Positions 48,271 to 63,479 of a DNA stretch of 64,000 nucleotides are shown here, piece by piece. Origin of the DNA: a virus (taxonomy: Duplodnaviria; Heunggongvirae; Uroviricota; Caudoviricetes); the IMG/VR virus record IMGVR_UViG_3300031993_000014, positions 114,987-178,986 of that record. One strand, 5' to 3'. Position 1 is the first letter of the stretch. Each line of letters opens with the position of its first letter. The position numbers and the translations under genes are program-made. Under the pieces are notes generated by a model. The model was not told the DNA's origin. It did not search any database and saw only the letters and a list, made by a program, of their open reading frames with translations.

Positions 48271-48286
48271 TTTTGTATACCTTTGG

Positions 48287-48856
48287 TTATTCGATCACTT
48301 CAATTTGTTGTGCACGGGCAACAGCCTTAGCTGCTTCATGACCCGGTTGTTCACCATGTTCGTTAGGTAATCCTGCCGAGCAGGTGCTGTCCCAAATGAT
48401 TCGCTTGTCTGGGAACATAGCTCTGAGGATAATAAGGTTGGCAATAACACAGATTTCAGAAACGAACCCGATGACGGTAATAGTTTCCGCTTGCTCAAGA
48501 ACTCTACGCATTTCTGGGAGATAGTTTTGGTCATCTTTTTCAAGTCCCCAATTAAGGCAGCCGAAAGTGTGCTTTTCTACAATCTGAATGAGCTTCGGCT
48601 TTGCAGCTCTATAGATGCTCGGTTCGATTTCGTAGCCCTGATCCTTAGCATAGACATCACAATGTTCCGGGATATGCTGGCCTTCGAGCGAGAACTTGTA
48701 GTAACGACCATCGTGCAAGTCTTCGGTCAGGATGACAGGCCCCTGATGGTTTTCGATTTTCTTAACGGCCTTTTCCAATACCGCTTGTGCCAACGGATTA
48801 GCGAGTCTTCCGTTGATGAAGTCTTTGTCAAAGTCAATACCAATAAGTGTATTCAT
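48287..48856 (-). CDS. pncA: nicotinamidase (isochorismatase-fold cysteine hydrolase)
   Basis: MNTLIGIDFDKDF (catalytic Asp), ...VIGFVSEICVIANLI (catalytic Cys). Start moved to the ATG at 48856 with AGGT RBS. Confidence 0.75.
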   Translation of the reverse strand: MNTLIGIDFDKDFINGRLANPLAQAVLEKAVKKIENHQGPVILTEDLHDGRYYKFSLEGQHIPEHCDVYAKDQGYEIEPSIYRAAKPKLIQIVEKHTFGCLNWGLEKDDQNYLPEMRRVLEQAETITVIGFVSEICVIANLIILRAMFPDKRIIWDSTCSAGLPNEHGEQPGHEAAKAVARAQQIEVIE

Positions 48857-48863
48857 TGTATAC

Positions 48864-50162: not shown

Positions 50163-51442
50163 TAATAAGCCCTCCACAAGCGTTGCGAGTTATGTTTCTC
50201 AATGATAGTCTTAACGAATTCCGTGATTGCTTCCGGATTATCCTTAAGATAAGCAAGCTCGCTCAGAGGCTGATAGTTAAAGTCATTCTTGACTCTGATG
50301 ATCTGTTCTTCGTCGTCATGGTTGCACTTGCCAGCAACATCGCTCAGCTTGATAGCCGAGATACCGTTACCGCTATAGAGCTTCATGACCATATTGAGAG
50401 GATCACCACCAACGGTATTGGTGAGGAATGTGCCTTGTCCGATGGCAACATTGATAACATGAGCAAACATCTTAACGAGCATTACCACATCATCATCCTT
50501 CAAACTGTCGCTAAAGCAAGCGGTCTTAGTAAGAGGATTGATCTTGAGCTGCTTGTAGAATTCGATAAGGATCTGGCACCAGAGTACTGGATCGCCACTG
50601 TCATGGCGAACACCGTCGGCGAGCTTGGCATAGAGCAAGTCGAAGTCTTCGAGGAAGGCCTTGAAACCATAGGTGTCGCTGAGGAAGATACCGAGATTGC
50701 CACGATATTCACGAAGCCATGCATCGAAGGTTGCACGCTGCGATTCCGAGAGACGGAACTTAGAAATCGTCTGGAGAAGCATGAACATCTGATGGGCCAT
50801 TGTACCCATGTCCTTCACGCCGTTGATCATTGCCATATAGACATTACTTGTACCAACGAAAGCCTTGCAGTTTTCGATAAGGTACTTGACAACGAACATC
50901 TGCCAATCAAAGCTTGCACGGCGACGAGTACCGAAGTCGCTGAGAGTAAACTTGTAGCCCTCGTCGTAGATCTTGTTATACTTGTCTACGGCTTCCTTCA
51001 AACGCTTCTTGCCGAATTCATAATCGGTAGGCTGGTCAATCATCCACAGTTCCTGAATGATCTCAAGGACGTAGATTTCAAACCAATGGTCACGTTCTTC
51101 AAGACCATTAGTCCATACTCCAAGGACATCACCATCACGGGCGACATGGATGTCTTCACGAGGGAGACGGAAGTCACGGAGCCAACGAATGTAGTCTTCG
51201 CTGTACCAATTGTGACTTGCGATAAAGGAGAGTTCATCTTCTCCGTGCTTAAGTTCACAGAGATGATTGAGCTGATACTCAAGTTCATCTTTCAGGTAAG
51301 CAGTCTTCTTACCTTGCGAACGGATTGTCAACTTCCACTGCGAACGTTCGTTCGGGAACTGGTGATGAAGTACCTGACCCATCGAATACTTGTAAGCATC
51401 CGTGTCGGTAAGGTGATTGACGATGCACTTATAGTGACCCAT
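50162..51442 (-). CDS. pncB: nicotinate phosphoribosyltransferase
   Basis: Blocks align to E. coli PncB: HLTDTDAYKYSM (LLDTDAYKLHM), LSDFGTRRRAS (MDFGTRRRFS), AFVGTSN, GVRHDSGDP, KLSDVAGK. Confidence 0.85.
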   Translation of the reverse strand: MGHYKCIVNHLTDTDAYKYSMGQVLHHQFPNERSQWKLTIRSQGKKTAYLKDELEYQLNHLCELKHGEDELSFIASHNWYSEDYIRWLRDFRLPREDIHVARDGDVLGVWTNGLEERDHWFEIYVLEIIQELWMIDQPTDYEFGKKRLKEAVDKYNKIYDEGYKFTLSDFGTRRRASFDWQMFVVKYLIENCKAFVGTSNVYMAMINGVKDMGTMAHQMFMLLQTISKFRLSESQRATFDAWLREYRGNLGIFLSDTYGFKAFLEDFDLLYAKLADGVRHDSGDPVLWCQILIEFYKQLKINPLTKTACFSDSLKDDDVVMLVKMFAHVINVAIGQGTFLTNTVGGDPLNMVMKLYSGNGISAIKLSDVAGKCNHDDEEQIIRVKNDFNYQPLSELAYLKDNPEAITEFVKTIIEKHNSQRLWRAY

Positions 51443-51736: not shown

Positions 51737-51796
51737 TTGTTTCCTTTTGCAAAAGAAATAAGTATATGACCATTTAGCCATATACTGTAAAAAATA

Positions 51797-51876
51797 ATAT
51801 ACGGCTTTACTTAGAGTAAAGCCGTATGATTTATGAATAAAACTATTCACGCCCAGCTTTACCCAGAGAGTAAAGC
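51797..51876 (-). terminator. two tandem hairpins GCTTTAC-N7-GTAAAGC; the first has a U-tract
   Basis: acggcttta-cttagag-taaagccgt (51801-51825), followed on the minus strand by ATATTATTTTTTAC. A second similar hairpin lies at 51856-51876. Confidence 0.55.
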
Positions 51877-51950
51877 GGAAGAAGAAGCGAGAAGAATGAT
51901 TTGATTCATATAGCAACCACCAAAGAGAAGAAGTATGTTTCATTTTAAAG

Positions 51951-52967
51951 TTAGTACGGGATTGCTTGGATTGAGCCGTCTTCGTTAACTTGAGGCGGTT
52001 GCGGATCGGACGATGCCGGAGTAGACACACGCTGAGTGGTTTCGCCATCGCTATGAGCATGCTCCAATGCTCCAAGAGAATCCAAGGCAAATGTCATGTT
52101 AGACGGATCCTCTTCAGATCTTGGCGCTACTGTGGCTATCACACGAATCGCATCAGAAACAGATTGTGGCATGTGTCTGCTAAACATTGTATCAAGCCGA
52201 TCGTGGATTTCTCTCACAAGACGTTCAGTATGGACTCGGTTAAGAGCATTGTCTCTAATAACGCTCTCAGCTTCTCTGAAAACAAGATCAGAACTAAGGG
52301 TTTGATTGGCTGTCCTGAAGGTATGCTCGTTGTTTGCAGTATCCAGCGTAGTATTCCGCAAGATGTTATTGCTTAAACTCACCCAGTTGTTCATAAGAGA
52401 ATATGCCGTTGCGTAATCGTAAGACACTTCCGGGCTGAGAGTACGTCCGTTTCTAGATTCAGTTAAGTCAGTTACAGGAACGGTGATTTGTTGCAGACTT
52501 TCTTCTGTTGCTCGAATGTCCGGATCTTCATCACGCAAGTCTTGCCATTCAGCAGTAACGTTATGGCGGTCTTCTTCTTCGGTTATATCCGCCACCTGAT
52601 TTGCACATGGAGCTAAAATCACCTTCTTCAGAGTCTCTTCCAGAATTCCGAAAGCGTATTTACTTATATCACCATCCGCGAAATGCTTTGCATAAGCATT
52701 CTCGCTCTTAGTTTTAATGGGGCCATTATCAGATTCTGGATAGAAGACAACAGAACCCATGTCAGTTAATAACACACGGTTGTAGATATAGCAATCATTC
52801 GTGAATCTTTGAAACTCGATGGGATAATGGTGTTCACCGGAAACGTTTAATATGTTTCCGCTAATCTGATCAAACTCGGGTATAAGACATGCAAAGGACT
52901 TATTACTGGGTCTATCTATGAAACAAGAGACAAACCCGATAGTATTAAGAATTGTTAGACCAGTCAT
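51951..52967 (-). CDS. paralog-array member, long form: family domain plus ~200-aa acidic C-terminal extension
   Basis: N-terminal TILNTIGFV and KYAFGILEETLKKV match the family motifs. Most promoter-distal gene of the array. Confidence 0.6.
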   Translation of the reverse strand: MTGLTILNTIGFVSCFIDRPSNKSFACLIPEFDQISGNILNVSGEHHYPIEFQRFTNDCYIYNRVLLTDMGSVVFYPESDNGPIKTKSENAYAKHFADGDISKYAFGILEETLKKVILAPCANQVADITEEEDRHNVTAEWQDLRDEDPDIRATEESLQQITVPVTDLTESRNGRTLSPEVSYDYATAYSLMNNWVSLSNNILRNTTLDTANNEHTFRTANQTLSSDLVFREAESVIRDNALNRVHTERLVREIHDRLDTMFSRHMPQSVSDAIRVIATVAPRSEEDPSNMTFALDSLGALEHAHSDGETTQRVSTPASSDPQPPQVNEDGSIQAIPY

Positions 52968-53377
52968 TCCATTACTCCTACCTTGTATTTTCTAGCTATT
53001 TCGATTGCGCCAAAGGCTTGTTTCTTTAGTGCCTCAACACGATTACGAGTTAAAAGTCTATGGCGATCTTCTTTCGTATTGCTCCATCTTCGTGTTGCCG
53101 GATCATAGATAGACATAGAAGTTACAGACCAGATAGTAGGCTCGTACATGCTCTTATCTTTTCTGGACACCTCTGAGAAGACAAATGTGGCGTTGTTGGT
53201 ATGGACATCAACCGTATAGCAATCAAGACCGGGTATTCCCCACATCTCTAGAGCAAGCAAATCTAGCATACGCAAGATTTCGAAATGCTCTTCTTTTGTT
53301 GCCATACGGTCTTCTTGTCTTCTACAACGCTCCATGTCCTCTTTGAGGTTAACTACGCTGTCATCAAGCTCGCTCAT
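52964..53377 (-). CDS. small-protein paralog family member
   Basis: C-terminal KQAFGAIEIARKYK. Stop and start overlap with neighbours. Confidence 0.6.
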   Translation of the reverse strand: MSELDDSVVNLKEDMERCRRQEDRMATKEEHFEILRMLDLLALEMWGIPGLDCYTVDVHTNNATFVFSEVSRKDKSMYEPTIWSVTSMSIYDPATRRWSNTKEDRHRLLTRNRVEALKKQAFGAIEIARKYKVGVME

Positions 53378-53777
53378 GGCCTATACCAACTTCTTTCGCA
53401 AGCTTCTCTAGAAATCCGATGTTCCACTTCATTATACTATTGGGTGTTTCGTCATTTAGACTCTTGCGAACAAAATCATATTTCCAGTCTGTGTTTAAAT
53501 GAATAAAGTCCGGTTCTTTTACTATCTCCGAATACGAATACAGACGGAGCATACCCTCGCTACTTTCCCGAACTAAGAGCATAGCAGTATTGGTGCCAGG
53601 CCCGAAACCAGAGAAGGCGAAAGCCGCATCTTCCTTTCTCTCGAAGCAAACTCTATCGTTCATTATAAATCTAGTATGCCGCCCTATATCTTCAGCGCTT
53701 ATAGCATTATTGAATCTTCTATGCAACAACTCAGCGCCCATAGTTGCTACTAGTGTTCCAAATCCTGATGGACTCAT
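53364..53777 (-). CDS. small-protein paralog family member
   Basis: C-terminal WNIGFLEKLAKEVG. Confidence 0.55.
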   Translation of the reverse strand: MSPSGFGTLVATMGAELLHRRFNNAISAEDIGRHTRFIMNDRVCFERKEDAAFAFSGFGPGTNTAMLLVRESSEGMLRLYSYSEIVKEPDFIHLNTDWKYDFVRKSLNDETPNSIMKWNIGFLEKLAKEVGIGHERA

Positions 53778-53794
53778 TAAACCTCCCTGTTAGT

Positions 53795-54190
53795 TTATAA
53801 AAGTTCATATCCTTCATTCGTTAATCTACTGCCCCCATTTGTACGATTCTCCATTAAGCCTTGCACAAGGACAATCAATTTACTTCCGCAGACCAAATGT
53901 AACGGCTCAAGTTTTAGATCACGGCTTCGATTACACCATAGACAGCAGCCCTCGTCTTCGCCACCGTTCCAAGTAAAATTGGTGTAAGTGCTTATCTTAA
54001 TGCCGTCCTTGCTCTTCCAGAGATTTACAGCTGCGGATCCTAACCCTCCAACAAAAGTGAAATCAAAGTCAATGAAATTCAATCTGTTAAGTGAAGATTC
54101 CACGTCACGAACACCTTCTCCGACGGTATCATAGCTATCTAAGAATAATCCTAAAGTCAAAAGAACGTGAGATACAAACTCAGTCGTCAT
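53795..54190 (-). CDS. small-protein paralog family member
   Basis: Start at the ATG with AAGGAG RBS (MTTEFVSHVLLTLGLF...). C-terminal LIVLVQGLMENRTNGG. Confidence 0.6.
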   Translation of the reverse strand: MTTEFVSHVLLTLGLFLDSYDTVGEGVRDVESSLNRLNFIDFDFTFVGGLGSAAVNLWKSKDGIKISTYTNFTWNGGEDEGCCLWCNRSRDLKLEPLHLVCGSKLIVLVQGLMENRTNGGSRLTNEGYELL

Positions 54191-54614
54191 CGTCTTCTCC
54201 TTCGTTCTTTGAGAAGTACATAAGCATCTCAGCATTGCCTAGTACAAGATTCATGAGCTTTTCGTCGGACAATTCAGCGATGTTGTGGTCACAGATATCG
54301 TGATCTCCAGACATAAGATTACCGAGTCTGCTCATGCGTGAATAAGAAGAAAGAGTGATTACGGTATGGTGTGTCCCGTCGGCAATAACTTTATTCGACG
54401 TATCAAACAAGAAAGCAGAGTCTATGAAACCATACAACATTCCTCTCATAAAAGAAGCGGTATGTGTCTTCACATGATTCTCTATCTGTCCCGCTATGAT
54501 CTCCACAGCATCCTCGTCTTCGGTTATACCGATTCTCGTTCTTACGTAACCCATAGATTCAAAGTCATACCCGAGAGATAGGAGTATCATGCTAATGTAC
54601 TTGGTGTGTCTCAT
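54180..54614 (-). CDS. small-protein paralog family member
   Basis: N-terminal MILLSLGYDF. C-terminal LVLGNAEMLMYFSKNEG. Confidence 0.6.
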   Translation of the reverse strand: MRHTKYISMILLSLGYDFESMGYVRTRIGITEDEDAVEIIAGQIENHVKTHTASFMRGMLYGFIDSAFLFDTSNKVIADGTHHTVITLSSYSRMSRLGNLMSGDHDICDHNIAELSDEKLMNLVLGNAEMLMYFSKNEGEDDDD

Positions 54615-54975
54615 GGTACTTCCTCCCGTAATACAGTAATGTTTCAGCTTGCCCGAACAATACCCTCATCAATTTCTCAATGCGTATTTCCATAACGGTT
54701 TCATTATTGAAGTCATAATTGTTCTTTACAAAATTGTTGGTGCTGAATTCACGCGAATATGTGTTCAGCTTATGGGTACCGCTTGGAACATAGGCTATGA
54801 CGACTGTATCCGTAACCCCGAAGATCCTACCGTTGAAGTGGCAACGCTTACAGTCCAACATGCTTCTTGCGACTCGCCTCAAGCTTTCTTCCATACTTGC
54901 TTCTGTGACGGTGCCTTCATATGTATTGTGAAGGCCCATCAGCAGCATCATTCTGTAACATCTAAGAGGCATCAT
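54592..54975 (-). CDS. small-protein paralog family member
   Basis: C-terminal RVLFGQAETLLYYGRKY. Confidence 0.6.
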   Translation of the reverse strand: MMPLRCYRMMLLMGLHNTYEGTVTEASMEESLRRVARSMLDCKRCHFNGRIFGVTDTVVIAYVPSGTHKLNTYSREFSTNNFVKNNYDFNNETVMEIRIEKLMRVLFGQAETLLYYGRKYHETHQVH

Positions 54976-55348
54976 TGTCTAATCCTCTCCTTATTATCAT
55001 AAGAGATTCTAGATTTCCGAATAAGCACCGTACGAGATCAACTTCTTGCATGTCCTTTATCGGTTCTTCTCTAGCATCCCCATCACGGGAGAGCAAAGTC
55101 GTAGAACCAGATGTAGAACGTCTAGAAAATGTCTCTATCCGGTATCCGTATTCTTTGTGCTTAGTGATGAAAACTGCCGTGTCGTCATGATAGGCGATAA
55201 ACTTGAATCCAAAGATCGTACGCTTCATTGCCAATAATGACACGACTCTGGCAGTATCCATAACACTACTGATACTGTTCGCTGGCAGACCTAAGCGATG
55301 CTCCTGTCCTAGAGTGAGGAGAATAATTACGCTATCGAGAAGCTGCAT
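54962..55348 (-). CDS. small-protein paralog family member
   Basis: N-terminal IILLTLGQEH. C-terminal RCLFGNLESLMIIRRGLDN. Confidence 0.6.
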   Translation of the reverse strand: MQLLDSVIILLTLGQEHRLGLPANSISSVMDTARVVSLLAMKRTIFGFKFIAYHDDTAVFITKHKEYGYRIETFSRRSTSGSTTLLSRDGDAREEPIKDMQEVDLVRCLFGNLESLMIIRRGLDNDAS

Positions 55349-55739
55349 GGGCTATTCTTCTCCCTACGGACAAGGTGCATTCTATATTTCCAAACATGTA
55401 TCTAGTGAAATCCTCTTTCGTCATGTAGTATATATTAACGCCTTTGGCATCATCTTTACAAGAGAGCATGAAATAAGCTCCACTAGTAGTGAATCTCGAA
55501 AAGGTCTTTAAAAGGAAGCCCTCATGTCGGTAGTCTTTAATCCTTTCTCTGATGATGTAAGCGGTTATATCGCTCACCCCGTATATGTTAGGCGAAAACC
55601 CAAGGCATGTGAAGTCATTGAACCATGTGATTAAGCCACTAGCGATAGAATTAACACCGCTAGTATTGATCAATATGTGTCCTGCACCATTGTCTAGCCC
55701 CAGAGAGAGCATCGTGCTTATGCTATCGAGCAGCCGCAT
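55332..55739 (-). CDS. small-protein paralog family member; start uncertain
   Basis: The track ORF extends to 55820 and overlaps the upstream gene by ~100 nt; internal ATGs at 55739 or 55712 (MLSLGLDNG) are more plausible. C-terminal RYMFGNIECTLSVGRRIA. Confidence 0.5.
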   Translation of the reverse strand: MRLLDSISTMLSLGLDNGAGHILINTSGVNSIASGLITWFNDFTCLGFSPNIYGVSDITAYIIRERIKDYRHEGFLLKTFSRFTTSGAYFMLSCKDDAKGVNIYYMTKEDFTRYMFGNIECTLSVGRRIAHAASR

Positions 55740-56112
55740 TAAAGTTTCCCCGATGGTTTTGCCAAAGCCGTTCAATATAGCCGAAGACAAACTTGCAGTA
55801 TTCATAGCTTTCAATGCCATTCAGCAACTTGTGCCTAAAGAAATCTCTAGGAATCTTCCTGTTGCCGATCAAGTCTCTGTCGGCAGATACATAGAAAGAA
55901 TCACCGTCCCTTTCGAACATGAAGACTTCATCATAGTGTCTGCCGTCTAAAAGCAGCTCAGATGAGAAATATCCAGTGTGGTTATCGTCAAACCATTGCT
56001 GAACCCTCTCATCAGCAGCGGAGACCGTAGGCCCAATCTCTTCACCGCCAAGAGGGAATCCTGCTCCATTAGTCAATAATACTTTCCAACAAAATGTTTT
56101 AAATAAAGCCAT
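55723..56112 (-). CDS. small-protein paralog family member
   Basis: LLTNGAGFP...WFDDNHTGYFSS...FVFGYIERLWQNHRGN. Closest to the next gene. Confidence 0.65.
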   Translation of the reverse strand: MALFKTFCWKVLLTNGAGFPLGGEEIGPTVSAADERVQQWFDDNHTGYFSSELLLDGRHYDEVFMFERDGDSFYVSADRDLIGNRKIPRDFFRHKLLNGIESYEYCKFVFGYIERLWQNHRGNFNAAAR

Positions 56113-56476
56113 AAGTCGTTCTCCTGTGTTTATCTAAAAGGTATTCATCAAACGCGAATATGAGCCTTACAAAATCCGTTTCATCAATTCTGGAAAAGCT
56201 GGTGACACGATGAGCATCGTCCACTTCTCTGCCTAGACTGCCGTCGTCGATCTCCATGAAGAAATCGCACTTTTTGCTGTCATAGTACAATGACAAAACT
56301 GATCTTATACAAAGGTCAAACATCACAGCGGAAAAGTATCCTTGAGAGTCACTGTTAAACCAGTTCATCACAAAATCGAAGGCTCCGGTGGCTGTTTCAC
56401 CGACTTCTCCAGCGGTATACGGGAAACCGAATCCGCTTGTTAACAAAATCTTAAATGCTGTTTCAGGCTGCAACAT
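56099..56476 (-). CDS. small-protein paralog family member
   Basis: LLTSGFGFP...WFNSDSQGYFSA...IFAFDEYLLDKHRRTTYG. Clearly homologous to 55723..56112. Confidence 0.65.
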   Translation of the reverse strand: MLQPETAFKILLTSGFGFPYTAGEVGETATGAFDFVMNWFNSDSQGYFSAVMFDLCIRSVLSLYYDSKKCDFFMEIDDGSLGREVDDAHRVTSFSRIDETDFVRLIFAFDEYLLDKHRRTTYGFI

Positions 56477-56966
56477 TTGGTAACATCCCCAGCTTACGGC
56501 TGTATTTCAAAAGCTCCTCAACTTGTCCAAAGAGGATCTTAGAAAACTTATCCCGTTCTCTTACGTTGAAGTTCTCGCCATGATCTCCGAAAACAAAGTC
56601 ATCATCGAAACCAAAGTCCTCGTTACCACTGCTGTTAACAAGAACGCCATTTAGAATTTCGAATCGCGAATATGTAGAAACAGCATCGCCTACTTCGTAC
56701 TCTTCCGGTTCGTAGTAGTTTACGAGCGTCGAACTTGGGAAGCCATACAGACTTCCGCAAAGATCAACATTAGACTCATCCTCCATGATCCTATTCACGA
56801 CCGCTGAAGCACGATCCACAAATTTGTTAAGATCAACTTCATCACCACTGTCAACATACTCTAAGATGGTTTCATCATCAACATCGATACCGAGAACAGC
56901 GGAAGAGTAGTAAATATGGTCAAATATACCGTCGTTTGTCATTTTAACCTCCTGACAAGTAAACAT
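56463..56966 (-). CDS. small-protein paralog family member
   Basis: C-terminal KILFGQVEELLKYSRKLG. Confidence 0.6.
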   Translation of the reverse strand: MFTCQEVKMTNDGIFDHIYYSSAVLGIDVDDETILEYVDSGDEVDLNKFVDRASAVVNRIMEDESNVDLCGSLYGFPSSTLVNYYEPEEYEVGDAVSTYSRFEILNGVLVNSSGNEDFGFDDDFVFGDHGENFNVRERDKFSKILFGQVEELLKYSRKLGMLPNVAA

Positions 56967-57399
56967 CTTCTGGAAGAACTAATGGAACGATTTCCGGATC
57001 TCTCGCTGCATGAGCCCAGTGTATCTTCATATCTCCCATCTCTTGCTCCAATGCTCCAATCATGGTTGTGATAACCATGTTTAGGGTTTCATTGATACTT
57101 TTTTGGTCATTGATATTGTTGGCTACTATGCGCGGTTTGTAGTGTCTCACTCCGTCTACATAGATAAGCCTTCGTATAGAGATTACACAATCGTCTTCGC
57201 TCCTATACAAGTCCAAAGGATTTCCAAAGAGAAGCGTAACGTCATAGCTACAATGTCTGTTAACAGCTATATTATTACGGAAATTATTGGCGCATTGCCG
57301 AATGGGATGAGAGTCAGTTTCACATGCAAATGCTGCCATCGTCTTGGCTATAATATAGGCATGATGCATGACTGTTACAGCTATTTTAAAGCTCATCAT
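56944..57399 (-). CDS. small-protein paralog family member
   Basis: C-terminal TMIGALEQEMGDMK. Confidence 0.5.
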   Translation of the reverse strand: MMSFKIAVTVMHHAYIIAKTMAAFACETDSHPIRQCANNFRNNIAVNRHCSYDVTLLFGNPLDLYRSEDDCVISIRRLIYVDGVRHYKPRIVANNINDQKSINETLNMVITTMIGALEQEMGDMKIHWAHAARDPEIVPLVLPEDVYLSGG

Positions 57400-57796
57400 A
57401 AACCTCGATAATTTGGGGTGTGAGACCTCGTTTTCTGTACTCTAGGGCTACATCTTCTAATAGCCCTATGCACAGCTTGGCTAGATCTGTCTTTTTCATG
57501 ACAGTGATTCTACGTTCAACGTAGTCATCGTGTTCCGTACTGTGATTGAGCTTCATAAACTGGCCACATGCAACAAGGGCAGTATAAGTGCTGATCTTAT
57601 GATCATCAATCATGAAAGCATAGTAATCCATGAAGAATGGCTCTTCCGGAAGAACTACGAAGTTAATGCAGCGTGTACTTGCCAAGACTTCGAGTCTGAT
57701 GCTCTCTTCAGGGGCAGTAGTCATACCCATAGCAAAGAGAGCTTTACATGCCTCCAGCTTTCCTTTAAGATATTCAGTCATAATCCTCCTTTGCAT
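57386..57796 (-). CDS. small-protein paralog family member
   Basis: N-terminal ALFAMGMTT. C-terminal KLCIGLLEDVALEYRKRG. Confidence 0.55.
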   Translation of the reverse strand: MQRRIMTEYLKGKLEACKALFAMGMTTAPEESIRLEVLASTRCINFVVLPEEPFFMDYYAFMIDDHKISTYTALVACGQFMKLNHSTEHDDYVERRITVMKKTDLAKLCIGLLEDVALEYRKRGLTPQIIEVYDEL

Positions 57797-58189
57797 CTAA
57801 GATATAATATCCCAAAGAAAACCGTTCTTTCTGTCCAACTTTGCTATGCCTTCCATTAGCCCAATGATAAGCATCACTATCCTTCTCTTATCGAGATGCT
57901 CAAGCTGCTGATAGCGTATGTCCTGTGTTCCTTGTATAAAATTGTACATCTGATAAAGAACAGTGCCGTGGTCAAGCTGTGGCATACACGCTTTTGCCTC
58001 AATTTGCGTTGCTGTGCAAAAGGCAAGATTGGATACAGTTATTACTGTATTGTTAAAGATGTAGTCACGGTCTACGAAAAAGGTAAGATGACCGCTGCTT
58101 TTTAATCCCATAGACTGAGCAGCGCTCTCTATGTATTGATAATTCGCTACACAAAGAGCACCATTTCTCATAGCATCTTCGGTATTCAA
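57797..58189 (-). CDS. small-protein paralog family member
   Basis: C-terminal MLIIGLMEGIAKLDRKNG. Confidence 0.55.
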   Translation of the reverse strand: MNTEDAMRNGALCVANYQYIESAAQSMGLKSSGHLTFFVDRDYIFNNTVITVSNLAFCTATQIEAKACMPQLDHGTVLYQMYNFIQGTQDIRYQQLEHLDKRRIVMLIIGLMEGIAKLDRKNGFLWDIIS

Positions 58190-58629
58190 AACGGTATATC
58201 CCCCTCTGGAATATTCCCATTCCAGTTAATGTCTTTTAGGCGGTCTATCTCAGCTAATCTTTCCATGAAGCCAAACAGTCGCTTGCTTATTTTCTCTATC
58301 GTAAGTTCAGAGTAATGAGCATTGAGAAAGTCGCCTTGGCCCTTTTCCAGATGAAAAAGCAGACTCGGGTATCTTTCATCAATGTTATCTGCAAAGTCAG
58401 TATACGAATTGAGGTATGGGCCACTTATAAGAAACGCAGGATTCCTCAGTTCCAGATATCCCCTAGTAGGCAAAAAGGGAATGATTTGTCCCATTACGTT
58501 AGTAAGACCCATAGACTCGCATAGACGAATACAGACTCTAGACATATCTTCGGCGTCACAGAAATCAGTCTCCTCTGCGAGTGGCTCATGCACATATTCG
58601 TACTGCGTTAAGTATGTGGTGAAATCCAT
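58186..58629 (-). CDS. small-protein paralog family member
   Basis: C-terminal KRLFGFMERLAEIDRLK. Confidence 0.6.
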   Translation of the reverse strand: MDFTTYLTQYEYVHEPLAEETDFCDAEDMSRVCIRLCESMGLTNVMGQIIPFLPTRGYLELRNPAFLISGPYLNSYTDFADNIDERYPSLLFHLEKGQGDFLNAHYSELTIEKISKRLFGFMERLAEIDRLKDINWNGNIPEGDIPF

Positions 58630-59024
58630 AGGTTCCTGTCTATCTTGTTGAATTCGTGTTTAAAGACTTCTTCTAACGCGCCAAAGGCTGTAGCTAGAAG
58701 TTCGCTCGGTTCTACGGATTCCATTTCGAAGCAGTCATAGTCGTCGATTTGAGATGCTGTTTCATACCTAGGTCTATACAAGCCGAGACGTACCTCTGGC
58801 TGTGTCGTTTCTACTTTCTTGAAGTTTAGTTCTGTAAAAGACCAGAGATAGTCCTGATCCTCTATGAAGACAATATCACCGGGAAAGGTAGTATTGAGCT
58901 GTATGCCGTATGATATCGCCACCTCAGAATATTCGTCTTCGTCTCTGTTAAAGGTTCTCTCGTCAAAGAGAAGTGATTTAACGGTTGAATCAAAATTGTA
59001 AAATTCCATCAGAGAATTCTCCAT
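58608..59024 (-). CDS. small-protein paralog family member
   Basis: C-terminal LLATAFGALEEVFKHEF. Confidence 0.55.
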   Translation of the reverse strand: MENSLMEFYNFDSTVKSLLFDERTFNRDEDEYSEVAISYGIQLNTTFPGDIVFIEDQDYLWSFTELNFKKVETTQPEVRLGLYRPRYETASQIDDYDCFEMESVEPSELLATAFGALEEVFKHEFNKIDRNLWISPHT

Positions 59025-59371
59025 TGTGAGCGTATGTTTCTCACGGTTTCCATCATGCCATATACATACCAGAGCATATCGTCAATGTTATCTGGAACGC
59101 AATAGTCCGGTATCTTCAATCCAAACACAGATCTCCATATGGAATTGGTTTGAAGAATGAACGAGTCATCAGACCAATCGGTAAATGTAAAGTCAAAGAA
59201 GCTTCCATCATTGAGAGTATTGGGGTCTTCGCCACTAGCGCGAAGACCGCTTTCATCGTCTCCGAAGAATGTAAGATCGCTCCAACTATCGTCGTCATAT
59301 CCAATACTTCTTAGGAAGGCATAGCAAACGCCCCTTTCATTTCTAGTCATTACTCCTCCAGTTAGTTGCAA
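59009..59371 (-). CDS. small-protein paralog family member
   Basis: N-terminal FLRSIGYDDD. C-terminal WYVYGMMETVRNIR. Confidence 0.55.
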   Translation of the reverse strand: MQLTGGVMTRNERGVCYAFLRSIGYDDDSWSDLTFFGDDESGLRASGEDPNTLNDGSFFDFTFTDWSDDSFILQTNSIWRSVFGLKIPDYCVPDNIDDMLWYVYGMMETVRNIRSQWRIL

Positions 59372-59669
59372 CAGCTTTCACAACTTCTGCAATACCAAAC
59401 AGGTATGCTATTAAAACATCATTACTAATGGCGCAGCAGAAAGCTTGAGCTGTCCTTTTATCTCTTATAACATGCGAACTTGTAACAATGCGCAAACCAC
59501 CCAAGCCGTCAGACAGGCCGAAGTCTTCATTTATCACGTCACGACGCTCGTCCATAAAGAACATATAGTCGTCTGTGATGCCATTATCTTCAAATCCCAT
59601 TATCTTTAGTATTTCATACGGTCTGAAGTCAGTTGACTTCTCTTGTACGGACTCTCTGCTAAAACTCAT
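59343..59669 (-). CDS. small-protein paralog family member; start uncertain
   Basis: The track ORF to 59768 overlaps the upstream gene by 100 nt; an internal ATG (MSFSRESV...) is chosen. KIMGFEDNG...AYLFGIAEVVKAV. Confidence 0.5.
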   Translation of the reverse strand: MSFSRESVQEKSTDFRPYEILKIMGFEDNGITDDYMFFMDERRDVINEDFGLSDGLGGLRIVTSSHVIRDKRTAQAFCCAISNDVLIAYLFGIAEVVKAVATNWRSND

Positions 59670-60025
59670 TCTACCCTCACGGGAAGATAAACTCCACCAA
59701 AAGTCCTTAACAACTCGAAGTATCTTTTCAGTCTCTTTTCGAGAATTCCGAACATAGCCGGTGTACATTCTTCTATACGCTTCTTTCGTATAATGCTTCT
59801 CGGAGAGTCATCTACACAAGTATACTTCTCCGGAAGAACATTGACGTTGTAATAGAAGTGCATTGTCTTGCAGTATATATCCATGCCAACATTAAGTCGT
59901 AATTCTGCATTAAACTCGTCACGAAGACTTCCAAATGCAGCGAACGAGTTATCAAATCTGACTAGTTCAAAGCCAAGTGACAACAAGGCTCTGAACCCAA
60001 ATTTTTCTGCGTCGCTTCCTGTCAA
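59666..60025 (-). CDS. small-protein paralog family member
   Basis: N-terminal LLSLGFELV. C-terminal AMFGILEKRLKRYFELLRTFGG. Confidence 0.6.
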   Translation of the reverse strand: MTGSDAEKFGFRALLSLGFELVRFDNSFAAFGSLRDEFNAELRLNVGMDIYCKTMHFYYNVNVLPEKYTCVDDSPRSIIRKKRIEECTPAMFGILEKRLKRYFELLRTFGGVYLPVRVE

Positions 60026-60357
60026 GGATTCCTCCTTATTCGTTCTTCCTGTCTCTTTTCTATCACTCCATAGATAGCAATAGCCAGAGATCGGAGTTCT
60101 TCCGTTCCTTTTATCTTGTAATACGGCTTATACTTTTCTTGTTTTCCAAATTCTTCATTGAGCCATACAGTATGCTTAAATAAATCTTTGCTAATGCCAG
60201 TAAAGTAATAATTAAATTCATACATGCCGTCTACTGGCGGACGAAACTGTAACGCATCACCCGCAAAGAGAAGGCCACTACCTGCTACTGGCACAAAACC
60301 CATAGCCGCAAAGATCTTTATTATGTCTGCTGGCCCATGAGCGCTCATTATAATCAT
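60022..60357 (-). CDS. small-protein paralog family member
   Basis: N-terminal IFAAMGFVPV. C-terminal IAIYGVIEKRQEERI. Confidence 0.55.
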   Translation of the reverse strand: MIIMSAHGPADIIKIFAAMGFVPVAGSGLLFAGDALQFRPPVDGMYEFNYYFTGISKDLFKHTVWLNEEFGKQEKYKPYYKIKGTEELRSLAIAIYGVIEKRQEERIRRNP

Positions 60358-60665
60358 AGGTCTCTCCTGAACGGCTTGTTCATTCGCACTTCGAGCAAGC
60401 TGAAGAAGATAAAGACTATCTCTTCTTCATTAGTTCCTACGAACTGTGTTACGTTGCCATGAAGCTTAAAGGCTTCCTTAGCGCCTTCGCCAAAATCCGG
60501 TCTATACTTTCCGGACTGATTGCTGAATATAAACTCCACTAGACGGTCACTGGAGTATTCTTCAAGCACTTTCAAGCGAAGATCATCGTTTCCTGGTGTC
60601 ATAGCTGTCATGTATCCCATCGAGTGGAACATAGAAACAAAGTCAGCTCCATTTATTCGTCCCAT
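60354..60665 (-). CDS. small-protein paralog family member
   Basis: N-terminal MFHSMGYMTA. C-terminal FIFFSLLEVRMNKPF. Confidence 0.5.
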   Translation of the reverse strand: MGRINGADFVSMFHSMGYMTAMTPGNDDLRLKVLEEYSSDRLVEFIFSNQSGKYRPDFGEGAKEAFKLHGNVTQFVGTNEEEIVFIFFSLLEVRMNKPFRRDL

Positions 60666-60970
60666 TTCTTACTCCAGTCATAGCCCATATAGTATTGTGT
60701 AGCACTTATCTTTTCCAGATGACCAAAAACAATCTTCAGAAAATCCTCTTTTAATATAAAAGAATCTGTGTCGATGTCATGATCACCTCTTCTAAAAGTA
60801 AATGTGCCGGGTGAACATAAGGCAACTTGTGTACATGATGTTATACGTATACTATTTGTATATGCGAAGTGAAAGTTTATTCTTGGTATAATAAGCGGCG
60901 TGTTTATGAAGGCAGCGTCGGCTCCAACTTCATAGCCGAGAGATTTAAGCGTCCATCGATAAAAGAGCAT
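60653..60970 (-). CDS. small-protein paralog family member
   Basis: N-terminal TLKSLGYEVG. C-terminal KIVFGHLEKISATQYYMG. Confidence 0.55.
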   Translation of the reverse strand: MLFYRWTLKSLGYEVGADAAFINTPLIIPRINFHFAYTNSIRITSCTQVALCSPGTFTFRRGDHDIDTDSFILKEDFLKIVFGHLEKISATQYYMGYDWSKKWDE

Positions 60971-61286
60971 AAGAGTCCTTCTCTATTAGAATTTGTACGG
61001 CACGTTCCATAGTGCCAAATAAATTCGCAACAAAATTCTCTCTAGGATCATATGAATACAGCTCTCGTTTGAGTTCGCCATTGTACCTATAGAGCATTCC
61101 TACATCATTATCAGAAAAGTCGAACCTCATTTCCACACTTCCAAATTCAAACTTAAATAGGAAGAAGTATCTTTTGAAAGCCGAGGTCAGACCAAAAGAA
61201 GCTGCGCAAAGAGCTATGCCCTCGGCGGACATTAGCTCTACTCCACGCCTCTCTCTGTCTGGTCTTAAGTTAGGCATAAACGTCAT
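60945..61286 (-). CDS. small-protein paralog family member
   Basis: N-terminal CAASFGLTS. C-terminal ANLFGTMERAVQILIEKD. Confidence 0.55.
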   Translation of the reverse strand: MTFMPNLRPDRERRGVELMSAEGIALCAASFGLTSAFKRYFFLFKFEFGSVEMRFDFSDNDVGMLYRYNGELKRELYSYDPRENFVANLFGTMERAVQILIEKDSYALLSMDA

Positions 61287-61633
61287 ATAATATAATCCTT
61301 TTTGTACTTATAAGCTGTTTCTAAACATCCGATAGCCAAAGTCGAGAAGTCGCACTGTACAAACCCTCCGATCGGATAGGACGAGTGCGCATAGTCACCG
61401 CACTTTGGTTTACAACCATATCTTCCATAAACATGAATCCTATACAACGGATACGGATTTCTTCCCGTTGTGTTAAGCCTGATTAGAGTATCACCAAGAC
61501 TCCTTCTAAAGTCTAAACTGTATGTTCTACAGCTGTAATCGCCTTGTCTTGTGTTGACGAAACACAAAGAATCCAAAACCTTGGCTGCTTCGGTTATAGT
61601 TATCAAAGGTGAGTATCTTGATTCTTCTGCCAT
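61283..61633 (-). CDS. small-protein paralog family member (promoter-proximal end of array)
   Basis: C-terminal LAIGCLETAYKYKKDYII. Confidence 0.5.
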   Translation of the reverse strand: MAEESRYSPLITITEAAKVLDSLCFVNTRQGDYSCRTYSLDFRRSLGDTLIRLNTTGRNPYPLYRIHVYGRYGCKPKCGDYAHSSYPIGGFVQCDFSTLAIGCLETAYKYKKDYII

Positions 61634-61707
61634 ACATTTCTCCTTGTATACTCTTTATTATATACTATGAAAAAATAAAGCTCATGGACGAATCCATGAG
61701 CAATTCT

Positions 61708-62136
61708 TTAGTCGTAGCGTCCTGCGCTAATGAGACGACTTCCTAGCTGTGCTATCTTTGAAACATATTCCTGATATTCTTTTGCACCGCCGCTGAAGTT
61801 ATACCTGTCTATTCTTACTTCAATGGAGTCATAGAAAGAGATAAGGAGATATAGATCATGCGCATACTGGGTGATAGTTATACGACCAATGTCATCATCT
61901 TCCTTCTGGTAATTGATGCATAAGGTTGTAGGCATTTCCTTACTGAAATTGGCATGAAGGAAATACGTATTATTGAAGATATTAGGTTTTCCGAAGAAAT
62001 CCATCAGGTCTTCTATCTTGAGACTTTTTAAGTAGTCTTCATTCTTCATTGTCATCTTCAATGCTTCTTCGTATCTAGCATGACTACAGTCTTTGTTAAA
62101 TTCGTCAAGTCCAGTTAGGGTTTCCTCTAAGAGCAT
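61708..62136 (-). CDS. hypothetical protein, 142 aa
   Basis: ORF. The family motif is not evident. Confidence 0.5.
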   Translation of the reverse strand: MLLEETLTGLDEFNKDCSHARYEEALKMTMKNEDYLKSLKIEDLMDFFGKPNIFNNTYFLHANFSKEMPTTLCINYQKEDDDIGRITITQYAHDLYLLISFYDSIEVRIDRYNFSGGAKEYQEYVSKIAQLGSRLISAGRYD

Positions 62137-62834: not shown

Positions 62835-63479
62835 TTATGCCTCGTCGCGGAACTTAGCGAATTCGTCATCGATGGAAGCATCCTTTGTTTCAACTTCATC
62901 GATATCGTCTTCGCGAAGAATTTCCTGAACGTGTTGTTTAGCCTTAACGCTATGTTCATATCCGGCGATTTCTTCTTCAATAGCCTTGAGCGTAGCATTG
63001 TCAGACGGGCTGATGAGCTGTTCAAGAGTCTTATTAGCCTTGAGGTTATCAATGATGAACTTGAGCTGTTCTGTACGGCTTTCGAGGCTGTTCTTCTTTT
63101 CATTCATGATACGAAGATTGCGCTCGGCTTCGGTCTTGAATCCAAGAGCTGTATTATACTGTTCTTCGTATGTCTTGACCTGGCTTTCCCAGTCTTTGTA
63201 CTTCTTGAAGAACTTCTTGGACTTGTCTTCATCTTCCTTCAAGAGAGCCTTAGCCTTTTCCTTGTACATGTCGCGATTCTTCTTTGCGTCTTTGAGCTTT
63301 TCATCAACTTCATCGAAATTAGCGAAGATTCTTTCAGAATCCTTCTTATACTTGTCGAACTGGTTCTGATATTCTTGCTTGGAATACTTGAGACGCTTTT
63401 CCAAGTCGATCGTTTCTTCAAGTTTGGAAGAGAAGTGGAACACGTTAATCTTTATCCATTTGATGATTGCTTTAAGCAT
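62835..63479 (-). CDS. PspA/IM30/Vipp1-like coiled-coil protein, 214 aa
   Basis: Length and all-helical K/E-rich composition fit the family. The N-terminus IIKWIKINVFHFSSKLEE resembles PspA's IFSRFADIVNANINALLEK, and the C-terminal SIDDEFAKFRDEA resembles SLDDQFAELKADDA. The plus-strand 240-aa ORF over the same region is judged antisense. Confidence 0.6.
   Translation of the reverse strand: MLKAIIKWIKINVFHFSSKLEETIDLEKRLKYSKQEYQNQFDKYKKDSERIFANFDEVDEKLKDAKKNRDMYKEKAKALLKEDEDKSKKFFKKYKDWESQVKTYEEQYNTALGFKTEAERNLRIMNEKKNSLESRTEQLKFIIDNLKANKTLEQLISPSDNATLKAIEEEIAGYEHSVKAKQHVQEILREDDIDEVETKDASIDDEFAKFRDEA

What the first reader, a model, noticed from the sequence alone, without database searches (positions are those of the whole stretch)
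51951..61633. About 9.7 kb tandem array of 24 divergent small paralogs with a conserved C-terminal h-h-G-x-h-E-x-h...[RK][RK]xG motif
Twenty-four consecutive minus-strand genes of 103-167 aa, plus one 338-aa long form, have stops and starts overlapping by 4-25 nt. They share an N-terminal [ILM]-L-x-[ST]-[LM]-G-[YF] segment and a C-terminal helix such as KILFGQVEELLKYSRKLG, RVLFGQAETLLYYGRKY, RCLFGNLESLMIIRRG, KRLFGFMERLAEIDR, FVFGYIERLWQNHRGN or AMFGILEKRLKRY, while the middle is highly diverged. Adjacent pairs 55723/56099 are still clearly alignable, indicating serial duplication. About 15% of the window is devoted to this one family, and I do not recognise it as a known domain. It sits directly upstream of the NAD+ salvage operon, separated only by terminator hairpins and two tiny membrane peptides. 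This is the pattern expected for an arms-race cassette: anti-defence decoys or inhibitors, immunity-protein-like binders, or host-takeover factors with diversified specificity.
Basis: seen in the sequence. Interest (0 to 1): 0.9.

Follow-up and report, generated by a model that had tools for sequence, protein, structure and literature searches.

The report
Orphan 24-gene paralog array, jumbo phage
An uncultivated jumbo phage devotes one 9.7-kb operon to 24 back-to-back, highly diverged copies of a small protein family found nowhere else in public data; it is probably a battery of early-made host-interaction proteins, but that function is inferred, not shown.

Summary
Window 51951-61633 (minus strand) holds 24 contiguous genes: 23 of 103-159 aa and one of 338 aa. 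Twenty of the 23 junctions overlap. All 24 share an invariant Glu in a C-terminal h-[FYI]-G-x-h-E helix. The strict motif occurs in 21/24 members against 0.7 expected. An N-terminal h-h-x-s-h-G-h motif occurs in 18/24 against 2.1 expected. Profile statistics prove homology for 14 members; the other 10 are linked only by the two motifs, size and position.

No member matches Pfam, PHROGs, NCBIfam, PADLOC or PDB. An exhaustive HMM search of 1.84 billion proteins found the family only in three closely related phage contigs, carrying 24, 26 and 27 copies. Orthologues are under purifying selection (dN/dS 0.03-0.46), but evolve 3-10 times faster than the adjacent NAD-salvage enzymes. The most similar pairs are neighbours, which indicates serial tandem duplication.

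The array is one terminator-bounded unit. It lies behind an AT-rich promoter-like motif that resembles the early promoters of AR9-type jumbo phages. Structure models are modest and have no confident fold match.

Best reading: an ancient, lineage-specific, early-expressed family of diversified binders for host takeover or counter-defence. This mechanism is inferred. The "[RK][RK]xG" tail is partly a shadow of the next gene's ribosome-binding site.

The parts
61680..61701 (-). Terminator-like hairpin that closes the upstream unit and marks the 5' boundary of the array unit.
   Evidence: It is 100% identical in the three related phages.
61657..61665 (-). Promoter-like motif GTATATAAT, 23 nt upstream of the first start codon. 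It belongs to the AT-rich GTATATWAW class.
   Evidence: The motif has 12 matches in the window against 1.9 expected, mostly intergenic and upstream of an RBS and ATG. It is invariant in the relatives. It resembles AR9 and other jumbo-phage early promoters (PMC5312081, PMC7598289). The early assignment is inferred.
61283..61633 (-). Member 1 (116 aa), motif IGCLE. Not joined by profile statistics.
60945..61286 (-). Member 2 (113 aa), motif FGTME. Weak profile link: hhalign probability 58%, E 1e-4.
60653..60970 (-). Member 3 (105 aa), motifs LKSLG and FGHLE. Core member.
60354..60665 (-). Member 4 (103 aa), motif variant FFSLLE. The most conserved orthologue (94-97% identity). Non-core.
60022..60357 (-). 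Member 5 (111 aa), motif YGVIE. Non-core and fast-evolving (dN/dS up to 0.46). In the relatives an extra copy follows this gene.
59666..60025 (-). Member 6 (119 aa), motifs LLSLG and FGILE. Non-core. Target of AF2 model 2 (pLDDT 55).
59343..59669 (-). Member 7 (108 aa), motifs LKIMG and FGIAE. Pairs with member 8.
59009..59350 (-). Member 8 (113 aa), motif YGMME. Pairs with member 7.
58608..59009 (-). Member 9 (133 aa), motif FGALE. Core member.
58186..58629 (-). Member 10 (147 aa), motif FGFME. Core member.
57797..58189 (-). Member 11 (130 aa, TTG start), motif IGLME. Core member. Orthologue only 62% identical in L001.
57386..57781 (-). Member 12 (131 aa), motif IGLLE. Core member.
56944..57396 (-). 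Member 13 (150 aa), motif IGALE. The least well supported member; non-core.
56463..56942 (-). Member 14 (159 aa), motif FGQVE. Core member. The most acidic of the short members (net charge -22; only the 338-aa member 24, at -25, is lower).
56099..56476 (-). Member 15 (125 aa), motif variant FAFDE. Core member. Pairs with member 16.
55723..56112 (-). Member 16 (129 aa), motif FGYIE. Pairs with member 15 (BLASTP 4e-11).
55332..55739 (-). Member 17 (135 aa from the ATG at 55739; the longest ORF would start at 55820), motifs MLSLG and FGNIE. Core member. Pairs with member 18.
54962..55348 (-). Member 18 (128 aa), motifs LLTLG and FGNLE. Core member.
54592..54975 (-). Member 19 (127 aa), motifs MLLMG and FGQAE. 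Core member. Target of AF2 model 1 (pLDDT 72).
54180..54614 (-). Member 20 (144 aa), motifs LLSLG and LGNAE. Core member.
53795..54190 (-). Member 21 (131 aa), motifs LLTLG and QGLME. Core member.
53364..53777 (-). Member 22 (137 aa), motifs VATMG and IGFLE. Core member. It has one extra paralogue in L001 and two in L004.
52964..53377 (-). Member 23 (137 aa), motif FGAIE. Non-core.
51951..52967 (-). Member 24, the long form (338 aa). Residues 1-~130 are the family domain (LNTIGF ... FGILE). Residues 131-338 are an unrelated polar extension whose last 35 aa are almost invariant in the relatives.
51761..51827 (-). Two terminator-like hairpins (51827-51799 and 51786-51761) that close the array unit. 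A second GTATATTAT motif at 51802-51794 precedes the NAD operon.

Best explanation
What it is (well supported). The array is an old, lineage-specific tandem expansion of one orphan family of small soluble alpha/beta proteins. The 24 copies form a single terminator-bounded operon in a ~242-kb jumbo myophage distantly related to the phiR1-37/AR9/PBS1 group. Most junctions overlap, consistent with translational coupling.

How it most likely works (inferred). The operon is transcribed early from an AT-rich promoter of the class that precedes the non-structural units of this genome. Each paralogue keeps a common scaffold and varies elsewhere. The scaffold is an N-terminal helix ending in h-G-h and a long C-terminal helix carrying F-G-x-h-E, which probably pack together on one face of a beta-meander. 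The sheet, the loops and the surface charge vary.

The products would act as stoichiometric binders or inhibitors of different host proteins, either defence or immunity components or other takeover targets. Each retained copy would cover a different target or target variant. New copies arise by unequal recombination between neighbouring copies and are occasionally lost.
For: Shown:
- The family is real and all members are intact.
- The motifs are conserved at protein level.
- Orthologues in two other phages are all full length and collinear, with dN/dS 0.03-0.46 at dS 0.15-0.6. These are therefore functional coding genes. The adjacent NAPRTase, PncA-like and NadE genes have dN/dS 0.03-0.08 at the same dS.
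- The C-terminal helix is the most constrained region: dN/dS 0.14 against 0.22 in the middle.
- Copy number is 24, 26 and 27, with gains or losses at two spots.
- Neighbours are enriched among the most similar pairs: 8 of the top 20 against 1.7 expected, p=4e-5.
- pI ranges from 4.05 to 8.8, and there are no TM segments.
- There is one promoter-like GTATATAAT and flanking terminators, with no internal terminator or promoter motif above background. The regulatory DNA is 100% identical in the three phages.

Inferred:
- Early timing. GTATATWAW (12 matches against 1.9 expected) precedes the array, the NAD operon, an SPFH operon and other non-structural units. GAACT-N4-AATG (7 against 0.87 expected), which reads as AACT-(6N)-TG like the AR9 late motif AACA-(6N)-TA/G, precedes seven genes in the 1-28 kb structural/replication block, among them the baseplate-like gene, the gene beside the terminase and the DNA polymerase (PMC5312081, PMC7598289).
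- Counter-defence neighbourhood. The adjacent four-enzyme nicotinamide-to-NAD+ operon is of the kind phages use against NAD-depleting immunity (10.1101/2024.02.11.579819; PMC13464706).
Against: - There is no direct functional evidence, and the host is unknown.
- No gene or region shows dN/dS above 1. Positive selection is therefore not demonstrated, only relaxed constraint.
- All 24 window genes keep their order in both relatives (24 of their 26 and 27 positions), and paralogues are below 30% identical. The expansion is ancient and stable. That fits fixed, distinct roles, including roles inside the phage's own biology, as well as it fits an arms race.
- There is no similarity to any known anti-defence or defence protein.
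- The early-promoter assignment rests on analogy. No RNA polymerase gene was identified in the window.
- The structure models have modest or low confidence (pLDDT 72 and 55), and fold matches are insignificant.
- Homology of 10 of the 24 members rests on two short motifs.
Confidence: 0.45

Rival explanations
1. The paralogues serve the phage's own biology. They would be either subunits of one hetero-oligomeric assembly or a set of dedicated chaperones or adaptors, each escorting a different phage protein, for example proteins to be packaged or ejected.
For: - Overlapping junctions suggest coupled, near-equimolar translation.
- Order and content are stable across the three phages.
- All members are under purifying selection.
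- The conserved terminal helices could be a shared interface.
Against: - Copy number differs (24/26/27) between phages whose enzymes are 96-99% identical. That is awkward for a fixed-stoichiometry complex.
- Evolutionary rates among members vary more than ten-fold.
- The promoter class is the one shared with non-structural units, not the class seen before the structural genes.
Confidence: 0.2
2. The members are virion-internal or ejected proteins, like T4 internal proteins or phiKZ inner-body paralogues. The conserved terminal motif would be a packaging or protease-processing signal.
For: - Internal-protein loci in T-even phages are variable sets of small proteins that share a short terminal signal.
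- phiKZ-like head proteins form paralogue families.
- The invariant Glu could be a P1 residue for a prohead protease.
(All three points are background knowledge, not tested here.)
Against: - The motif is G-x-h-E with Gly at P4. It is neither (S/A/G)-x-E nor (L/I)-x-E.
- The motif lies in the middle of the best-predicted helix.
- Cleavage there would remove only 15-28 residues in the short members.
- The extreme N-termini are not conserved; 5-40 variable residues precede the N-terminal motif.
- The promoter motif is the non-structural class, with no late-type GAACT-N4-AATG upstream.
Confidence: 0.1
3. The array is a poly-immunity cassette. Each member would neutralise a different protein toxin, such as an abortive-infection or polymorphic toxin or a toxin of a competing phage, as SUKH/Imm arrays do in bacteria.
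For: - Tandem arrays of divergent small alpha+beta paralogues are the hallmark of poly-immunity loci (PMC3113570, PMC3482391).
- The predicted order of helix, short strands, helix, four-strand meander, helix is reminiscent of the SUKH description.
Against: - No SUKH or Imm Pfam model matches any member.
- No toxin gene is adjacent.
- The family is absent from all bacterial genomes searched.
Confidence: 0.1
4. The array is not one family. It would be a run of unrelated small ORFs that share short motifs by chance, by composition, or through overlapping-signal constraints.
For: - Ten members are not joined by profile statistics.
- Part of the tail motif is explained by embedded Shine-Dalgarno sequences.
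Against: - The motif occurs in 21/24 members against 0.7 expected, and in 9/10 of the unjoined members (P about 1e-13).
- The Glu is invariant and encoded with mixed codons.
- The G-x-h-E motif ends 15-28 residues (37 in member 13) before the stop of the short genes, whereas the junction overlaps are at most 26 nt, about 8 codons.
- Members have similar lengths and similar motif spacing.
- All are intact and constrained in three genomes.
Confidence: 0.03

Closest known systems
Multigene families / 'genomic accordions' of large eukaryotic DNA viruses (ASFV MGF110/360/505; poxvirus host-range families)
   Same: - Contiguous arrays of diverged paralogues of a virus-specific family.
- Copy-number differences between close relatives.
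- Faster protein evolution than in core genes.
- Proposed host-interaction role.
   Different: - This array is in a bacteriophage.
- There is no sequence or confident fold relationship.
- The array is a single, apparently translationally coupled operon.
- The expansion is old and mostly stable rather than recently amplified.
- The function is untested.
Lineage-specific expansions in jumbo phages, e.g. the ~35-copy zinc-ribbon family of Bacillus phage G (PMC7824862)
   Same: A large phage genome with tens of copies of one small domain, of unknown or regulatory function.
   Different: - Those expansions use recognisable domains (zinc ribbon, Myb-type HTH). This family has no detectable relative outside three sister contigs.
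- All copies here are contiguous in one operon.
Poly-immunity arrays of SUKH / Imm proteins (PMC3113570, PMC3482391)
   Same: - Tandem, strongly diverged small alpha+beta paralogues.
- The logic of one scaffold with many specificities.
   Different: - No profile match and no SUKH structural hit.
- No linked toxin.
- Phage-borne, and absent from bacterial genomes.
SPO1 host-takeover module and other early small-gene clusters (10.1101/569657)
   Same: About two dozen small genes, expressed early, densely packed, and acting on host processes.
   Different: - The SPO1 genes are not paralogues of one family (from my own knowledge, not tested here).
- Early timing is only inferred for this array.
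Type III secretion chaperone / YbjN-like alpha-beta-alpha sandwich (AvrPphF ORF1, SycN, SpcS, AmyR, PsiB)
   Same: - Small size.
- N- and C-terminal helices flanking an antiparallel sheet.
- Protein-binding function.
   Different: - The scores are at noise level.
- The position of the middle helix differs.
- There is no sequence similarity.
- The model has only pLDDT 72.

Membership tests
Any curated protein family (Pfam, PHROGs, NCBIfam, PADLOC) | Profile-HMM match of a member | tested here: not met
   All 24 members were scanned. There were 0 families at E<=0.01 in each of the four libraries. Earlier scans of 10 members at E<=1 gave only noise.
Any family with members outside this phage lineage, including known anti-defence proteins | Detectable homologue elsewhere | tested here: not met
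   An exhaustive hmmsearch of 1.84e9 representatives with the 14-member profile gave 18 hits. Sixteen are this lineage. The other two are bacterial repeat proteins that match only the 31-position C-terminal motif. The word-indexed search of 5.8e9 proteins returned the same three contigs only. There was no phage GenBank match and no PDB sequence match. No dedicated anti-defence library was available.
SUKH / SMI1-KNR4 immunity superfamily | Match to SUKH profiles | tested here: not met
   No Pfam SUKH/SMI1_KNR4 hit for any member.
SUKH / SMI1-KNR4 immunity superfamily | Fold with a beta-hairpin plus a four-strand meander and four helices (PMC3113570) | tested here: inconclusive
SUKH / SMI1-KNR4 immunity superfamily | Linkage to a toxin gene | tested here: not met
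   The neighbours are NAD salvage enzymes, small membrane peptides, a weak PspA-like protein and unknowns.
Type III secretion chaperone / YbjN-like fold | Significant structural superposition | tested here: inconclusive
T4-type internal proteins / phiKZ-type processed head paralogues | Conserved extreme N-terminal targeting sequence, or a protease site (L/I)-x-E or (S/A/G)-x-E | tested here: not met
   The N-termini are variable in length and sequence before the helix motif. The conserved motif is G-x-h-E inside a predicted helix.
T4-type internal proteins / phiKZ-type processed head paralogues | Presence in virions and late expression | not testable with these tools
   There are no proteome or transcriptome data. 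The promoter motif upstream is the non-structural class.
Viral multigene family under host-driven diversification (functional kind) | Tandem paralogues arising by local duplication | tested here: met
   Adjacent genes are enriched among the most similar pairs (p=4e-5). There are extra local copies in the relatives.
Viral multigene family under host-driven diversification (functional kind) | Copy-number variation between close relatives and an elevated protein evolutionary rate | tested here: met
   24, 26 and 27 copies. dN/dS 0.03-0.46 against 0.03-0.08 for the flanking enzymes.
Viral multigene family under host-driven diversification (functional kind) | Positive selection at sites | tested here: inconclusive
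   No gene or region has dN/dS above 1. Three genomes are too few for site models.
Viral multigene family under host-driven diversification (functional kind) | Demonstrated host-range or immune-evasion phenotype | not testable with these tools
   This needs an isolate or heterologous assays.

The most novel reading that the evidence does not exclude
The family may be a previously unseen fold and class of phage counter-defence or host-takeover proteins built as a combinatorial set. Under this reading the invariant C-terminal F-G-x-h-E helix is a common docking element for one shared partner, a phage or host machine. The variable body of each of the 24-27 paralogues would recruit or block a different host target. 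This would be an adaptor or decoy library comparable in logic to F-box/PRANC or MGF families of eukaryotic viruses, but evolved independently in a jumbo phage.
Probability: 0.15. Interest if true: 0.85.

Novelty: new variant of a known kind. Interest (0 to 1): 0.6.

Why it matters
Long contiguous arrays of one diversified family are a signature of host-virus conflict in large eukaryotic viruses. They are rarely documented in phages.

This array takes up about 4% of a 242-kb genome, and its family has no relative in about 1.8 billion representative proteins. It is nevertheless kept intact and constrained in three diverged genomes. If the members are target-specific binders, they would be a ready-made panel of up to 27 natural inhibitors or adaptors of unknown bacterial targets. 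They would also be a tractable case of how phages grow new gene families.

The analysis also yields two candidate promoter classes for an uncultivated jumbo phage. In addition, it flags a four-enzyme NAD+ rebuilding operon different from NARP1-3.

Tried and rejected
- **Close phage relatives.** Megablast of the array against 50,697 phage records gave no match.
- **IMG/VR and JGI metagenome scans.** I used member 4, member 10 and the NAPRTase as queries. No related locus was found. The family alignment was too diverged to be used as a query.
- **Second AF2 model.** The model of non-core member 6 reached only pLDDT 55. It shows an N-terminal helix, strands and a long C-terminal helix, but cannot prove a shared fold.
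- **hhalign of non-core orthogroups against the core.** Only weak local matches at the C-terminal helix.
- **Upstream ORF 61708-62136 as a 25th member.** Rejected: it has no motif and an hhalign probability of 0.3%.
- **The 208-aa extension of the long form as a second, degenerate domain.** Rejected.
- **The two bacterial repeat proteins P0006 and P0018 as distant homologues.** Rejected. They match only the 31-position motif, many times over, and lie in a bacterial chromosome.
- **RNA polymerase genes, to back the early-promoter inference.** tblastn of two large unknown ORFs found nothing.
- **Sample accessions.** None were found in the literature.

Full report
**Context**

The window belongs to a large uncultivated myophage. 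A 1,390-aa protein (6820-10992, minus strand) is 32-38% identical, over about a third of its length, to the tail sheaths of phiR1-37, AR9, PBS1 and the staphylococcal jumbo phages. PHROG matches identify a terminase, a virion structural protein, a baseplate-wedge-like protein and a DNA polymerase. One array protein is recorded on a public contig of 242,489 bp. No GenBank phage matches the array at nucleotide level. The window has no tRNA gene and no Rfam match.

**The observation**

Between 51951 and 61633 the minus strand is filled by 24 ORFs. I chose start codons that have a Shine-Dalgarno sequence in front and that mostly agree with gene calls on an identical public contig. On that basis there are 23 genes of 103-159 aa and one of 338 aa.
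- Twenty of the 23 junctions overlap by 1-26 nt. The commonest overlaps are 4 and 14 nt.
- The other three junctions have gaps of 1, 15 and 17 nt.

The 162-aa and 167-aa lengths are longest-ORF overestimates.

**Is the shared motif more than chance?**

Yes.
- The strict pattern [LIVMFAYC]-G-x-[LIVMFA]-E lies in the last 45 residues of the domain in 21 of 24 members. Shuffled sequences give a mean of 0.69 (maximum 4 in 2000 trials), and 2 of 145 other ORFs of the window have it.
- In a 24-way alignment the Glu is invariant and the Gly is present in 22 of 24.
- All four Gly codons and both Glu codons are used, so selection acts on the protein.
- A loosely defined N-terminal h-h-x-s-h-G-h motif is present in 18 of 24 members against 2.1 expected.

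**How much is proven homology?**

- Iterated HMMs, scored against shuffled copies and against the other ORFs of the window, join 13 members. A fourteenth joins through its partner.
- The other ten members reach only weak profile-profile scores, and those matches fall on the C-terminal helix.
- Nine of those ten carry the strict motif (P about 1e-13). All ten have the same size and the same position of both motifs.

I treat them as very diverged members and flag that this is not proven.

In the 338-aa protein only the first ~130 residues form a family domain. The remaining 208 residues are unrelated to the family. The ORF upstream at 61708-62136 is not a member.

**A correction to the motif**

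The basic "[RK][RK]xG" tail is partly not a protein feature. In at least nine junctions the ribosome-binding site of the next gene (AGGAG or GGAGG) lies inside the upstream coding tail. There it is read as Arg-Arg, Gly-Arg, Ile-Arg-Arg or Trp-Arg.

**Distribution**

- None of the 24 proteins matches Pfam, PHROGs, PADLOC or NCBIfam. None matches PDB sequences.
- An exhaustive profile search of 1.84 billion representative proteins returned 18 hits.
  - Sixteen are this phage or two sister contigs.
  - The other two are adjacent secreted repeat proteins in a bacterial chromosome. They match only the 31-position motif, once per repeat. I regard that as convergence or score inflation.
- The word-indexed search of 5.8 billion proteins found the same three contigs.
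- Scans of IMG/VR and of JGI metagenome contigs found nothing.

**Comparison of the three phages**

L001 (21.8 kb) and L004 (49.9 kb) carry the same locus between the same flanking genes.
- All 24 window genes have full-length, collinear orthologues at 61-98% identity.
- L001 has 26 copies and L004 has 27.
  - Both have an extra gene after member 5. The two versions are only 60% identical to each other.
  - L001 has one additional paralogue of member 22 and L004 has two, at about 46% identity to member 22.
- Nei-Gojobori estimates give dN/dS of 0.03-0.46 for the members at dS 0.15-0.6. NAPRTase, the PncA-like gene and NadE next door give 0.03-0.08 at the same dS.
- By region, the C-terminal helix is the most constrained (0.14), followed by the middle (0.22). 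The overlapping ends are least informative. Nothing exceeds 1.
- Among the 276 pairs of window members, adjacent genes make up 8 of the 20 most similar pairs against 1.7 expected (p=4e-5).

The family therefore grew by serial local duplication. Most duplications long predate the split of these phages. Nearly all copies have since been retained under purifying selection, with a few recent gains or losses.

**Transcription unit**

A terminator-like hairpin (61701-61680) is followed by GTATATAAT, a Shine-Dalgarno sequence and the first ATG. Two terminator-like hairpins follow the last stop codon. Inside the array, neither scan found more promoter-like or terminator-like sites than shuffled sequence gives, and neither GTATATWAW nor the strict GAACT-N4-AATG occurs there.

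Two promoter-like motif classes can be told apart in the window.
- GTATATWAW occurs 12 times against 1.9 expected. Most matches are intergenic and lie 25-45 nt before an RBS. They precede the array, the NAD operon, an SPFH/flotillin operon and several unknown genes.
- GAACT-N4-AATG occurs 7 times against 0.87 expected. All seven matches precede genes in the 1-28 kb structural/replication block, among them the baseplate-like gene, the gene beside the terminase and the DNA polymerase. Read as AACT-(6N)-TG, it mirrors the AR9 late promoter AACA-(6N)-TA/G.

AR9 and other jumbo phages that carry their own RNA polymerases have ~10-nt AT-rich early promoters (PMC5312081, PMC7598289). I therefore infer that the array is an early unit. 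This is an analogy only; I found no RNA polymerase gene in the window. The 74 nt upstream of the array are identical in all three phages despite substantial synonymous divergence in the genes.

**Structure**

- AlphaFold2 on member 19, using the 14 core paralogues as its alignment, gave pLDDT 71.8 and pTM 0.61. The order is helix (3-12), short strand, helix (28-40), a four-strand meander (45-93) and a long helix (99-124). That last helix carries F-G-x-h-E and is the best-predicted part.
- A model of non-core member 6 reached only pLDDT 55. It shows an N-terminal helix, strands and a long C-terminal helix.
- Foldseek against PDB and BFVD gives nothing significant.

The fold is either new or not modelled well enough to place.

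**Properties**

The proteins are soluble, and their pI ranges from 4.05 to 8.8.

**Interpretation**

What is established: this is a real, ancient, lineage-restricted multigene family in one operon. All copies are functional. The terminal helices are conserved, and the body and surface charge vary.

What I infer: early expression, and a role as diversified binders of host proteins for takeover or counter-defence. I put this at about 45%. The support is the promoter class, the faster protein evolution, the copy-number variation and the adjacency to an NAD+ rebuilding operon. That operon is of a kind known to counter NAD-depleting immunity (10.1101/2024.02.11.579819, PMC13464706).

The main rivals are:
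- a phage-internal role as complex subunits or dedicated chaperones (about 20%);
- packaged internal proteins (about 10%);
- a poly-immunity cassette (about 10%).

Long-term stability of the array and the absence of dN/dS above 1 keep the first rival alive. The position and form of the motif, together with the promoter class, argue against the second. The lack of any SUKH/Imm match and of a linked toxin argues against the third.

**Novelty**

The protein family is new to all libraries searched. The organisational principle is known from large eukaryotic viruses, and in looser form from phage G: a tandem, lineage-specific expansion in a large virus (PMC7824862). A contiguous operon of 24-27 genes, with mostly overlapping junctions, built from an orphan family in a phage is an unusual variant of that kind.

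Noticed in passing
window 11124, 27454, 35457(-), 37589, 40131, 43237, 43918, 51802(-), 61665(-): The AT-rich motif GTATATWAW is over-represented (12 matches against 1.9 expected). Most matches are intergenic, 25-45 nt upstream of an RBS and ATG, and often directly after a terminator T-run. It is a candidate early-promoter consensus for this phage.
   Followed up: partly
window 5871(-), 13978(-), 15923(+), 19550(-), 23719(-), 27424(-), 27672(+): GAACT-N4-AATG occurs 7 times against 0.87 expected. All matches are upstream of genes in the structural/replication block. Read as AACT-(6N)-TG it matches the AR9 late promoter AACA-(6N)-TA/G. This suggests an AR9-like non-virion RNA polymerase, although none was identified in the window.
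   Followed up: partly
window 47503-51442 (-): This operon encodes NAPRTase, an NMNAT-NUDIX fusion, a PncA-like isochorismatase and NadE. Together they form a complete Preiss-Handler route from nicotinamide to NAD+. The operon is distinct from the described phage pathways NARP1, NARP2 and NARP3, and could be a further NAD+ reconstitution variant. It is preceded by its own GTATATTAT motif and by two small hydrophobic peptides (35 and 61 aa).
   Followed up: partly
window 51795-51952 (-): The ~215-nt spacer after the array is almost invariant in the three phages, while coding dS is 0.2-0.6. Its first 151 nt fold far better than shuffles (z = -5.6) into nested hairpins plus a terminator. The spacer begins with a late-like AACTTTAAAATG. 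It may be a small RNA or a 33-aa ORF (MKHTSSLWWLLYESNHSSRFFFRFTLWVKLGVNS).
   Followed up: partly
window 51951-52577 (-), residues 131-338 of the long form: This polar 208-aa extension is unrelated to the family and to any Pfam model. Its last ~35 residues (…HAHSDGETTQRVSTPASSDPQPPQVNEDGSIQAIPY) are nearly identical in the three phages, although the protein as a whole is only 75-89% identical.
   Followed up: partly
array junctions, e.g. window 54975, 55348, 56112, 60025, 60357: The Shine-Dalgarno sequences of downstream genes lie inside the upstream coding tails. They are read as Arg-Arg, Gly-Arg or Trp-Arg. This dual-coding constraint mimics a conserved basic protein motif.
   Followed up: yes
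L005 6001-11190 (bacterial contig ERZ25071132): Two adjacent secreted proteins (1124 and 562 aa) are built of ~80-aa repeats ending in EEFVKQVFGNMEHL. They lie between dapA and dapB in a bacterial chromosome. They hit the phage family profile only at its C-terminal motif. The relationship, if any, is unknown.
   Followed up: partly
window 38347-40077 (+) and 62835-63479 (-): The phage encodes an SPFH/Band-7 plus flotillin-domain protein (576 aa). It also encodes a weak PspA/IM30-like protein (214 aa, below the Pfam cut-off). Both are membrane-associated stress or scaffold families that are unusual in phages.
   Followed up: no
L001 4631-4957 and 11619-12032; L004 2999-3328, 10001-10435 and 10435-10848: These are the extra array copies in the relatives. 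One gene lies after member 5; its L001 and L004 versions are 60% identical to each other and have no counterpart in the window. One (L001) or two (L004) extra paralogues of member 22 are also present. These are the only gain or loss events seen.
   Followed up: yes
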